From assembly GCF_009914755.1 (NCBI RefSeq), contig NC_060936.1: a DNA stretch of 64,000 bases. One strand, 5' to 3'. Below are positions 14,401 through 17,235 of this stretch, in pieces; the first letter of the stretch is position 1; every line of letters starts with the position of its first letter. The translations under genes were made by a program, and so were the position numbers. Source of the DNA: the human T2T-CHM13v2.0 reference genome, Homo sapiens. The notes below the pieces were generated by a model that did not search any database, was not told the origin of the DNA, and saw only the letters and a program-made list of their open reading frames with translations.

Positions 14401-14727
14401 ACTTACCTAAACTGCCTGTGATACGGAAGCTGGACAGTGTATCTGAGCTGCCTGAGCTTAAATACAGGCACATACTTGACTCTGAAACTCAAAGATGTCT
14501 GGGATGATTTTTTGGAGCCAATGCTCATTGGTGAAGACAAAGTATGAGCTGCCTTACTGTAAACAGCTTGCCCAGGTTAGCTAGGATTTAGGGGTGGGAC
14601 AGCCAGTGAGGAATTTCACAACCCAAGATGGGCTGGATGGGTTACGAGGCTGCAAGTTCCCTGACACTGGACCTCGATGACCTTTTCAACCGTGCAGACC
14701 TGCAAGACTGCTGCTTTCACAAACTTC

Positions 14728-15060
14728 TATTTATTTCTTTTCTTTTATCTTTTTCTTTTCTTTTTTTTTTTTTTTTTGAGAGAGAATCTCACTCTGCCAC
14801 CCAGGCTGGAGTGCAGTGGCATGATCTTGGCTCACTGAAACCTTGGCCTCCCAGGTTCAAGTGATTCTCCTGCCTCAGCCTCCCAAGTAGCTGGGATTTC
14901 AGGTGCACGCCACCATGCCTGGCTAATTTTTGGATTTTTAGTAGAGACAGGATTTCACCATGTTGGCCAGGCTGATCTTGAATTCCTGACCTTAGATTAT
15001 CTGCCTGTCTCAGCCTCCCAAAGAGCTGGGATTACAGGCATGAGCCACCATGCCTGGCTG
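14728..15060 (-). mobile_element. Alu (AluS), full length
   Basis: Reverse Alu with an imperfect TSD acaaa(c/g)ttct(a/g)ttt on both sides. Confidence 0.95.
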
Positions 15061-15182
15061 ACAAAGTTCTGTTTCTATAAGGGCTACTATGCCCACAGTG
15101 TTCTGTGACCACTCCAGTTACTCTGCAATTAGTGATCTTAGTCAGAGCTTATAGAATTAATTCACAGAGTTGAGTGAATACT

Positions 15183-15441
15183 TGTCCTTAATTTCCTTGA
15201 CCTGTGCTTCGTATATTGCCTGCTGCATTCACTTAGAAGAATGACATGGTGAATGGGGCAATGAGGAAACTGCAACTTTCTATTAATGATGCAGAAGTGC
15301 CAGGTCAGAGCAGTCGTAGTGACGTCAGCATGACATAAGGACCACCGTTATGCCTTGGCCATGTGGGCCATTTAACAAGATGGTCAGCAGGGACAGCAGA
15401 GAGAAACATGGCCAGTGATGCCATTTGGAAGACCACTGGAG
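15183..15441. repeat. Left arm of 259-bp inverted repeat
   Basis: Hand alignment: position x pairs with 31561-x over 259 bp with no gaps and 17 mismatches against the reverse complement of 16120-16378. Confidence 0.97.
15320..15327. promoter_or_regulatory. Full CRE palindrome TGACGTCA (left arm)
   Basis: Exact CREB/ATF/CREM octamer with its CpG intact. Motif only. Confidence 0.4.
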
Positions 15442-16119
15442 TTTTTCACCCATGGAACTGGCGTGGGGTGAGACTAGCTTCATGCAGACCCTATGGTCTG
15501 ATCCTGTGAAAGGCACACAGGAAAATATTGATGCTCTTACCAGAAAGGGGGATTGGATTGATCCTGGGAAGGGATAGAGCACAGACAATCATCTGTCTGT
15601 TACCAAGTCTTTGCAGGCATCACTTGGATTTTGAGCATAATATACTTCTCCTTATGGATGCAGAAATATCCACTGGCTTCATGAGATTTCTACCTGCCTA
15701 CTGATTCTCAGTGTTTCTGACTACACTTCCCCATCTTCATAAATGTTCCATAAGCAGTCACCGTTTCCTCCCCATTCACTCAGTGCTAAGGCTTTGTCGC
15801 TCTAAGTGCAGTCTTCTCTGCAATGGTCACTGCTACTGACGTTCTATGGACAACAATCCCCATGTTTTTCTTTGAATTCTGCACTATTGAATGCCACATT
15901 TAAATTTCCTGGCCTGATTTTTTATTATTATCATTTCTTGTCTTATATACTGTTATATCTCTAGACTTTACACATGAGAGGTATTAAATAAATATTTTTG
16001 AATGAGTCAAAGACTTATAGCCATGTTCGACAACTCTTTTCTGATCTATGCTTTCTCTAGAGGCACCTGTCTCCTAAAGATAGACCTGAGACCACCTGGA
16101 CACCTGTGGGCCGGCCCTG

Positions 16120-16378
16120 CTCCAGTGGTCCTCCAGATGACATCACTGGCAGTGTTTCTCTCTGCTGTCCCTGTTGACCATCCTGTTAAATGGCTCACAT
16201 GGCCAGGGCATGACAGTGGTCCTTATGTCATGCTGACGTCACTGCGACTGCTCTGACTTGGCACTTCTGCATCATTAATAGCAAGTTGCAGTTTCCTCAT
16301 TGCCCCATTCACCATGTCATTCTTCTAAGTTGATGCAGCAGGCAATATACGAAGCACAGGTCAAGGAAATGAAGGACA
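16120..16378. repeat. Right arm of 259-bp inverted repeat
   Basis: Example: the reverse complement of 16261-16320 equals 15241-15300 except for one base. Confidence 0.97.
16234..16241. promoter_or_regulatory. Full CRE palindrome TGACGTCA (right arm)
   Basis: Mirror copy of 15320-15327, also intact. Motif only. Confidence 0.4.
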
Positions 16379-16521
16379 CACCATCTATCTTCCAGTGCGG
16401 ATTGGTGCATGGAAAGGACTATTTATCTATTGCCATGGCTTGGCCCAGACTAGCATGCATTTGTGCCAGAGTGCCATGGGAAGGCCATTTTCCTCTGAAC
16501 ACAAGACAGAAAGAGGAGGAG

Positions 16522-17235
16522 TGTTATGGACTAAATTGTGTCTCCTCAAAATTCATATATTGAAGCCCTAATACCCAGTATCTCAGAATGTGACTGTGTT
16601 TAGACATAGGATCTTTGCAGAGGTAAATAAAATGGGGCCATTAAGGTGGGCTACAATCCATCTTTTCTTTTTTTTTTCTTTTTATTTTAGATAGAATCTT
16701 GCTCTGTCTCAAAACAGGCTGAAGTGGAGTGCAGTGGTGCAATCACAGCGCACTGCAGCCTTGAACTCCCAGGCTCAAGTGATTTCAGTCTCCTGAGTGA
16801 GACTACAGTTATGCACCAACACACCCAGCTATTTATTTTTATTTTTTAGTAGAGACAGGAGTCTCGCTATGTGGCACAGGCTGATCTCTAACTCCTGGGC
16901 TCAAGCAATCCTCCTGTGCCAACCTCCCAAAGTGCTGGGATTACAGGCATGAGCCACCACGTCCATCCATAATCCAGTCTTACTGGTTACCTTTCAAGAA
17001 CAGATCAGGATACACAGAGAGCCACCAAGGTTGAGTGCACAGAGGAAAGGCCACGTGAGAACACAGCAAGAAGGCCACAATCTGCTCTCCAAGGAGAGAG
17101 CCTTCAGGAGAAACCAAATCTGCTGACATCTTGAATTTGAACTTCCACCCTCGAGAGCTGTGAGAAGAAAAATTTCTACTGCTCTAGGCACCCCATCTGT
17201 AGTATTTTGTTATGGCAGCCCTATCAAACTAGTAC
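16522..17235 (+). mobile_element. MLT1A-like MaLR LTR interrupted by AluJ
   Basis: Starts tgttatggactaaattgtgtctcctcaaaattcatat and ends gtattttgttatggcagccctatcaaactagtac. Confidence 0.85.
16661..16965 (-). mobile_element. AluJ
   Basis: Reverse Alu with J-type features (cactgcagccttgaactccc, ctcctgggctcaagcaatcctcc). Confidence 0.9.

What the first reader, a model, noticed from the sequence alone, without database searches (positions are those of the whole stretch)
15183..16378. Ungapped 259-bp inverted repeat in non-transposon sequence: candidate long hairpin RNA or invertible cassette
Seen (hand alignment): 15183-15441 is the reverse complement of 16120-16378 with 17 mismatches (93%), no indels, abrupt ends and a 678-bp spacer. 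In a plus-strand transcript 9 mismatches would be G-U wobbles (15229, 15303, 15317, 15349, 15355, 15366, 15387, 15409, 15425), 4 would be A-C, and 4 are transversions. That leaves only 8 unpaired positions in 259, with a perfect 48-bp run at 15231-15278. The arms are not Alu/L1/LTR as far as I can recognise, and I see no TSD or transposase remnant. Known: duplexes this long are substrates for ADAR, Dicer (hairpin endo-siRNA) and PKR/MDA5, and inverted repeats also mediate spacer inversion and arm-to-arm gene conversion. Inference: an unannotated hairpin-RNA locus or a flip-flopping segment. The 9:4 wobble skew is suggestive but not statistically strong. A neutral inverted duplication remains a viable explanation.
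Basis: partly seen in the sequence, partly recalled or inferred. Interest (0 to 1): 0.85.

Follow-up and report, generated by a model that had tools for sequence, protein, structure and literature searches.

The report
Single-copy 259-bp inverted duplication, intergenic
A real 259-base inverted repeat around a 678-base spacer in a human gene desert is most likely an old, neutral local inverted duplication, with no sign that it is a transposon or a working hairpin RNA.

Summary
Window 15183-15441 is the reverse complement of 16120-16378, with 17 mismatches, no indels, a 678-nt spacer and abrupt ends.

It is not a repeat family. In the T2T genome the arm matches only the two arms, and the spacer and left flank match only themselves. 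The same tool found 1690 candidates for an LTR fragment 140 nt away. I found no target-site duplication, no Pfam match above cut-off and no Rfam hit in arms or spacer.

Every test for constraint that two arms allow fits neutrality:
- G-U versus A-C is 9:4, p=0.27.
- The 48-nt perfect run is the expected maximum, P=0.45.
- Mismatch clustering is not significant.

Arm divergence (K2P 0.069) suggests an origin near the ape/Old World monkey ancestor, unless gene conversion reset it.

Best reading (about 0.75): a neutral, lineage-specific local inverted duplication made by template switching or break repair. A transcript would fold into a hairpin (251 of 259 arm positions paired on the + strand), but no gene is annotated here. 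Transcription, editing, small RNAs, orthologues and haplotypes could not be examined. Ordinary; low interest.

The parts
15183..15441 (.). Left arm of the inverted repeat (259 nt)
   Evidence: In the genome it matches only itself (100%) and the right arm (93%).
15442..16119 (.). Spacer (678 nt, 42% G+C), unique sequence
   Evidence: Only a self match in the genome. Its two halves show no internal inverted similarity. No Rfam hit. No Pfam match above cut-off for its ORFs.
16120..16378 (.). Right arm of the inverted repeat (259 nt), reverse complement of the left arm with 17 mismatches

Best explanation
This is a neutral, lineage-specific local inverted duplication of unique intergenic DNA. One 259-nt segment was copied once, in reverse orientation, about 0.7 kb from its source. 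The likely mechanism is a replication template switch (fold-back or inter-strand), break-induced repair, or a roughly 0.9-kb inversion with staggered breaks that duplicated one end. The two copies have since drifted apart by point substitution. Shown: the structure, its single-copy status, its abrupt ends, the lack of transposon hallmarks, and a mismatch pattern that fits neutrality. Inferred: the mechanism, the age (about that of the ape/Old World monkey ancestor), and the absence of function.
For: The arm has 2 genome matches, which are the two arms themselves. The spacer and left flank match only themselves. The same tool detects an LTR fragment 140 nt to the right, with 1690 candidates and the 39 non-self places scored at 77-86% identity, so family members of that similarity would have been seen. 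The ends are abrupt and identity outside the arms is at chance level, as expected of one discrete copying event. The mismatches are 13 transitions and 4 transversions, only 1 CpG-associated, with K2P 0.069. G-U versus A-C is 9:4, binomial p=0.27. The longest perfect run is 48 nt against a simulated mean maximum of 48.2, P=0.445. The variance of gaps (P=0.44), the densest 60-nt window (P=0.70) and the best split (P=0.13) are all unremarkable. There is no Rfam family in arms or spacer. Of 8 ORF translations, none matched Pfam above cut-off; the only listed match was zf-PARP at E=0.087 (14 bits against a cut-off of 39.3). No gene is annotated in the window (hub table). Template switching is documented to create inverted repeats, with or without an inverted spacer, in the human lineage (PMC5453318, passages read). 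Non-repetitive predicted dsRNAs occur at about 2 per Mb of human genome, and long highly paired ones are 88% intergenic (PMC11838218, sections read).
Against: Documented short-range template switches are tens of bases long (PMC5453318 passages; PMC8755829 passages). A 259-nt copy 678 nt away is larger than that class. Zero indels beside 17 substitutions is somewhat fewer than expected: with a recalled primate indel-to-substitution ratio of about 1:7, P(0) is about 0.09. Mismatches lean towards the spacer-proximal half, 12 of 125 against 5 of 134 (Fisher p=0.078; mean-position test one-sided P=0.038). This could hint at partial gene conversion or at pairing constraint on the outer half. The G-U excess favours the + strand by 15 kcal/mol, in the direction a + strand hairpin would predict. 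None of these is significant on its own. No outgroup, expression or population data were available.
Confidence: 0.75

Rival explanations
1. The inverted repeat is older than its 7% divergence suggests. It is kept similar by arm-to-arm gene conversion, possibly with occasional inversion of the spacer by recombination between the arms (the flip-flop reading).
For: Arm length over spacer is 0.38 and the mismatch rate is 0.066. This meets the Lirex rule that calls a long inverted repeat 'recombinogenic' when the ratio is at least the mismatch rate (PMC5414712 passages; the arithmetic is mine). Mismatches are fewer in the outer half, 5 of 134 against 12 of 125 (p=0.078), which a conversion tract could produce.
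Against: There is no significant mosaic of identical and divergent tracts. The longest identical run is 48 nt, well below the roughly 200 nt or more of uninterrupted identity that I recall efficient mammalian homologous recombination needs. The stronger criteria cited in the Lirex paper (spacer under 20 bp, ratio above 16) are far from met. No recombinase ORF is present.
Confidence: 0.1
2. It is a transcribed long hairpin RNA: a substrate for ADAR, Dicer or dsRNA sensors, with or without a selected function.
For: Either strand would fold into the long stem. The + strand has MFE -662.9 kcal/mol with 251 of 259 arm positions paired, including 9 G-U. The - strand has -647.9 kcal/mol with 246 of 259 paired. 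There are no indels between the arms. The stem meets the stated dsRNAscan thresholds by a wide margin (my arithmetic).
Against: No gene is annotated in the window (hub table). There is no Rfam hit in arms or spacer. The wobble skew is not significant (p=0.27). Four transversions and four A-C pairs are tolerated. Folding follows trivially from any inverted duplication. Long highly paired predicted dsRNAs are mostly intergenic and unedited, which the authors attribute to lack of transcription (PMC11838218).
Confidence: 0.07
3. It is a relic of a very low-copy or uncatalogued DNA transposon or foldback-type element whose long terminal inverted repeats are the two arms.
For: The architecture (long terminal inverted repeats around a non-coding core, 1196 nt in all) resembles a non-autonomous element. 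The confidence interval on arm divergence (3.5-9.6%) does not exclude an age near the last wave of DNA transposition in anthropoids, about 37 Myr ago (PMC2997546 abstract).
Against: There is no other copy of arm or spacer in the genome. No target-site duplication of 5 nt or more exists. There is no transposase remnant. The outermost 22 nt resemble a word found in two repeat families, but the likeness stops after 24-33 nt.
Confidence: 0.06

Closest known systems
Long inverted repeats and 'non-repetitive' predicted dsRNAs of the human genome (Lirex/LIR catalogues; dsRNAscan, Andrews and Bass, PMC11838218)
   Same: Two inverted copies of non-repeat sequence within 10 kb that would form a rod-like duplex if transcribed, in an intergenic setting like most long, highly paired predictions. 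By the stated scoring (+3 per pair, -4 per mismatch, threshold 75) this stem scores about 721 by my arithmetic, so it should already be among the 5.1 million predictions.
   Different: At 259 bp it is longer than the reported median non-repetitive prediction (75-144 bp). It is shorter than the 300 bp set for putative MDA5 substrates. I could not open the resource or its supplementary tables to confirm that the locus is listed.
Template-switch mutations that create inverted repeats (four-point model, Loytynoja and Goldman 2017, PMC5453318)
   Same: A reverse-complement copy of nearby sequence with sharp boundaries, able to form a hairpin. Event types with and without an inverted spacer are described.
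   Different: Described events are tens of bases long and very close to their template. Here the copy is 259 nt long and 678 nt away, closer in scale to fork-stalling or break-induced replication products. The ancestral state was not available, so the event itself is inferred.
Non-autonomous DNA transposons with terminal inverted repeats
   Same: Terminal inverted repeats flanking a non-coding core.
   Different: Single copy in the genome, no target-site duplication and no transposase remnant.
Inverted Alu pairs, the main human ADAR substrates
   Same: Arm length of about 260-300 nt and sub-kilobase to kilobase spacers. The window holds 18 other inverted pairs of 100 nt or more, several in Alu-like sequence.
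   Different: Those pairs are 73-84% complementary copies of a high-copy family, made by two independent insertions. This pair is 93% complementary, unique sequence, and made by one local event.

Membership tests
DNA transposon / MITE with long terminal inverted repeats | Terminal inverted repeats | tested here: met
   259-nt arms at both ends of a 1196-nt unit. Any inverted duplication meets this trivially.
DNA transposon / MITE with long terminal inverted repeats | Target-site duplication flanking the unit | tested here: not met
   No shared direct word of 5 nt or more within about 20 nt outside either end; only two 4-mers, and they are not in register.
DNA transposon / MITE with long terminal inverted repeats | Further copies of the family in the genome | tested here: not met
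   Arm: 2 matches, the two arms themselves. Spacer: 1 match, itself. Positive control: an LTR fragment nearby gave 1690 candidates at 77-86% identity. Copies much below about 75% identity could be missed.
DNA transposon / MITE with long terminal inverted repeats | Match to a catalogued consensus (Dfam/Repbase) | not testable with these tools
   No Dfam library is on hand. A profile of the one repeat family that shares the terminal 22-mer matches only 24-33 nt of the arm ends, at E=0.078 and 1.3.
Long inverted repeat, 'recombinogenic' by the Lirex rule | Arms over 30 bp, identity over 85%, arm length/spacer ratio at least equal to the mismatch rate | tested here: met
   259 nt, 93.4% identity, ratio 0.38 against mismatch rate 0.066 (rule from PMC5414712). 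The stronger criteria from yeast (spacer under 20 bp, ratio above 16) are not met.
Hairpin-RNA locus (ADAR/Dicer substrate) | Both arms transcribed on one RNA | not testable with these tools
   No expression data are available. No gene is annotated in the window (hub table).
Hairpin-RNA locus (ADAR/Dicer substrate) | Selection for pairing (excess of wobble over disruptive changes, compensatory changes) | tested here: inconclusive
   G-U versus A-C is 9:4, p=0.27. There are 4 transversions. No orthologues were available for a compensatory-change test.
Hairpin-RNA locus (ADAR/Dicer substrate) | Editing clusters or 21-23-nt reads from the arms | not testable with these tools
   No RNA data are on hand.
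Putative MDA5 substrate as defined in PMC11838218 | Over 300 bp and over 96% of nucleotides paired | tested here: not met
   The stem is 259 bp. Pairing is 251 of 259 (96.9%) on the + strand and 246 of 259 (95.0%) on the - strand (definition).
Invertible (flip-flop) segment | Both spacer orientations present in a population, or a recombinase nearby | not testable with these tools
   Only one haplotype is held. No ORF in 15066-16520 matches a recombinase.
Template-switch / inverted-duplication product | Reverse-complement copy of nearby sequence with sharp ends | tested here: met
Template-switch / inverted-duplication product | Outgroup lacking one arm (ancestral single copy) | not testable with these tools
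   No primate genomes are held; the genome tool says the assembly has no relatives here.

The most novel reading that the evidence does not exclude
A hairpin born de novo by one replication error in the catarrhine lineage. It lies in unique DNA rather than in transposons. If transcribed from the + strand it yields a 259-bp duplex with 251 positions paired, which feeds ADAR or Dicer. That would make it a rare non-repeat hairpin-RNA locus in humans, with the absence of indels and the 9:4 wobble excess as the first traces of selection for pairing.
Probability: 0.04. Interest if true: 0.55.

Novelty: new member of a known kind. Interest (0 to 1): 0.14.

Why it matters
If the ordinary reading is right, it matters little. 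It is one more example of the sparse class of non-repeat inverted repeats, useful only as a datable instance of a fairly large local inverted duplication. If the locus proved to be transcribed and processed, it would be a clean case of a long hairpin RNA created in one step from unique sequence. It would also be a natural test of how the human genome tolerates near-perfect dsRNA outside Alu pairs.

Tried and rejected
1. Repeat-family origin. Genome searches with the arm, spacer and flanks found no other copies. Only window 16518-16660 in the right flank is repetitive.

2. Terminal-word test. The outermost 22 nt with up to 3 mismatches gave 158 genome matches against 33 for the reversed control. 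I fetched 14 of these 158 places. Nine belong to one roughly 560-nt family that looks like the end of a retroviral-type LTR, and two to another family; the family naming is from recall. Likeness to the arm does not extend. blastn reaches 35-63 nt at 70-81% at best. A profile built from 8 of the 9 copies hits only 15172-15204 (E=0.078) and 16357-16380 (E=1.3). I reject it as a chance likeness of a T-rich word, though a 20-of-22 match to that family's commonest form is a little better than I would expect by chance.

3. Rfam. Only Alu-related SRP, mir-1268 and mir-3135 hits below the gathering score, all in the flanking Alus.

4. Coding potential. 11 stop-to-stop ORFs of 50 aa or more. I scanned 8 of the 11; none matched Pfam above cut-off, and the one listed match was zf-PARP at E=0.087.

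5. Weaker extension of the palindrome into the flanks or spacer: none.

6. Gene-conversion mosaic: not significant.

7. A profile search of the genome with the two-arm DNA alignment was not possible, because the tool takes protein alignments only.

9. Literature. One search for LINC00944 with 'inverted repeat' returned a single review that does not mention this locus. I made no other search for this locus, so I cannot say it is undescribed.

Full report
**Observation.** The inverted repeat exists exactly as described. The repeat finder reports arms 15183-15441 and 16120-16378, 259 nt, 93% complementary, 678 nt apart. blastn with word size 7 gives the same ungapped pair at E=3e-90 and nothing else for the arms or spacer in the 64-kb window.

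A base-by-base comparison gives 17 mismatches, 13 transitions and 4 transversions. Four are A-C and four are transversion mismatches. The longest perfect run is the 48 nt at 15231-15278.

The ends are sharp. In-register identity outside the arms is 12 of 50 (outer side) and 14 of 50 (inner side). Gapped local alignments of the outer flanks and of the two spacer halves score no better than shuffles.

Among the 19 inverted pairs of 100 nt or more within 10 kb in the window, this is the only one above 84% complementarity.

**What it is not.** The window is chr12 of T2T-CHM13 (hub table).
- The left arm finds only itself and the right arm in the whole assembly, 2 candidates, both scored.
- The spacer finds only itself.
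- The 117 nt between the left Alu and the left arm find only themselves.
- In the right flank the first 139 nt are unique. Window 16518-16660 hits a high-copy family, with 1690 candidates and the 39 non-self places scored at 77-86% identity.

That last result serves as a positive control for the tool's reach. By recall, that fragment is the start of a MaLR (MLT1-type) LTR. It is split by the Alu at about 16663-16967 and resumes at about 16968-17235.

Other negatives:
- No direct repeat of 5 nt or more flanks the 1196-nt unit.
- Rfam hits are confined to the Alus.
- None of 8 scanned ORFs (of 11 listed) matches Pfam above cut-off; the only listed match is zf-PARP at E=0.087.

**One lead that failed.** The outermost 22 nt of the arm, searched with up to 3 mismatches, gave 158 genome matches against 33 for the reversed control. 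Of 14 places fetched, nine share a roughly 560-nt family and two share another. By recall the first looks like the U5 end of a retroviral-type LTR and the second like an L1 segment. The likeness to the arm does not extend. A profile of eight family copies aligns only to 15172-15204 (E=0.078) and 16357-16380 (E=1.3). I treat this as a chance likeness of a T-rich word.

**Is there any sign of constraint?** With only two arms the tests are weak, but all come out neutral.
- A transition in a stem gives G-U or A-C with equal probability under strand-symmetric mutation. The observed 9:4 has two-sided p=0.27.
- Seventeen mismatches placed at random in 259 nt give a mean longest run of 48.2 nt, and P(48 or more)=0.445.
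- Variance of gaps (P=0.44), densest 60-nt window (P=0.70) and best split (P=0.13) are unremarkable.
- The mismatches lean towards the spacer-proximal half, 12 of 125 against 5 of 134. Fisher p=0.078 and the one-sided mean-position P=0.038. This does not survive the number of tests made.
- The absence of indels is mildly unusual. With a recalled primate indel-to-substitution ratio near 1:7, P(0) is about 0.09.

Both strands fold into the stem, as any inverted duplication must. The + strand has MFE -662.9 kcal/mol with 251 of 259 arm positions paired. The - strand has -647.9 kcal/mol with 246 of 259 paired.

**Age.** K2P distance between the arms is 0.069, with a raw 95% interval of 3.5-9.6%. 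Divided between two lineages, this gives 16-69 Myr for rates of 2.2e-9 to 0.5e-9 per site per year, and 29-35 Myr for 1.0-1.2e-9 (the rates are recalled). The distance is close to the human-macaque genome divergence that I recall, about 6.5%. So the event probably dates to around the catarrhine ancestor, unless gene conversion has reset the clock.

DNA transposons are reported inactive in anthropoids for the last 37 Myr (PMC2997546, abstract). Age alone therefore does not exclude a transposon, but the single-copy status does.

The 7% divergence also argues against an assembly artefact, which would give identical arms.

**Mechanism.** The best-supported reading is one local copying event.
- Template switching in replication is documented to create inverted repeats in the human lineage, with or without an inverted spacer (PMC5453318, passages).
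- Microinversions flanked by inverted repeats, and a break-induced replication model for them, are described in PMC8755829 (passages).
- Those events are tens of bases long, so this one is a large example, or a product of fork-stalling or break-induced replication.
- An inversion of about 0.9 kb with staggered breaks would give the same picture.

Which arm is the copy, and whether the spacer was inverted, cannot be told without an outgroup.

**Context.** A genome-wide prediction of human dsRNAs reports the following (PMC11838218, sections 5, 7, 9 and 10 read):
- About 2 non-repetitive predictions per Mb.
- Median non-repetitive lengths of 75-144 bp.
- 2,018 predictions that are both over 300 bp and over 96% paired, 88% of them intergenic and mostly unedited.

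By that paper's scoring, this stem (about 721 against a threshold of 75, my arithmetic) should already be in its catalogue. I could not check this, as the resource and its supplementary tables were not available to me.

By the Lirex rule the repeat counts as 'recombinogenic', with ratio 0.38 against mismatch rate 0.066 (PMC5414712 passages). The longest identical run of 48 nt makes frequent recombination unlikely, by recalled requirements for mammalian homologous recombination.

Work in yeast shows that widely spaced, divergent inverted repeats can still interact in long single-stranded DNA (PMC10164571, abstract only). A small fragility risk is therefore conceivable.

**Verdict.** This is a real, statistically overwhelming, single-copy inverted duplication in a gene desert, with no evidence of transposon origin and no evidence of function. 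It is an ordinary member of a known, sparse class. The functional readings remain untested rather than refuted, and I give them about 0.07 (any hairpin RNA) and 0.04 (selected function).

Noticed in passing
window 15320-15327 and 16234-16241: Each arm carries the palindromic octamer TGACGTCA, which I recall as the cAMP-response-element consensus, at mirror positions. This is a consequence of the duplication. It was not tested for binding or conservation.
   Followed up: no
window about 16521-16662 and 16968-17235, with an Alu at 16663-16967: A high-copy LTR (MaLR/MLT1-type by recall; 1690 genome candidates at 77-86% identity for its first part) is split by a minus-strand Alu. It starts 140 nt to the right of the inverted repeat.
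   Followed up: partly
window 14721-15065: A minus-strand Alu lies 117 nt to the left of the left arm (Rfam SRP-related hits). With the Alu at 16663-16967 it brackets the inverted repeat in direct orientation, about 1.9 kb apart.
   Followed up: no
outside the window, -51702..-10147 (LINC00944, minus strand): A review table lists LINC00944 as an edited, ADAR1-responsive lncRNA in breast cancer (PMC12187073, one passage read). By the hub table it ends more than 25 kb from the repeat and its minus-strand orientation points away from the window, so I see no link. It may be worth a glance if RNA data are examined.
   Followed up: partly
G000 places listed; loci L003-L011: The 22-nt word at the arm's outer end matches, at 20 of 22 positions, the commonest form of a word about 35-60 nt from the end of a roughly 560-nt repeat family (retroviral-type LTR end by recall). 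This is better than I would expect by chance, but there is no extension.
   Followed up: yes
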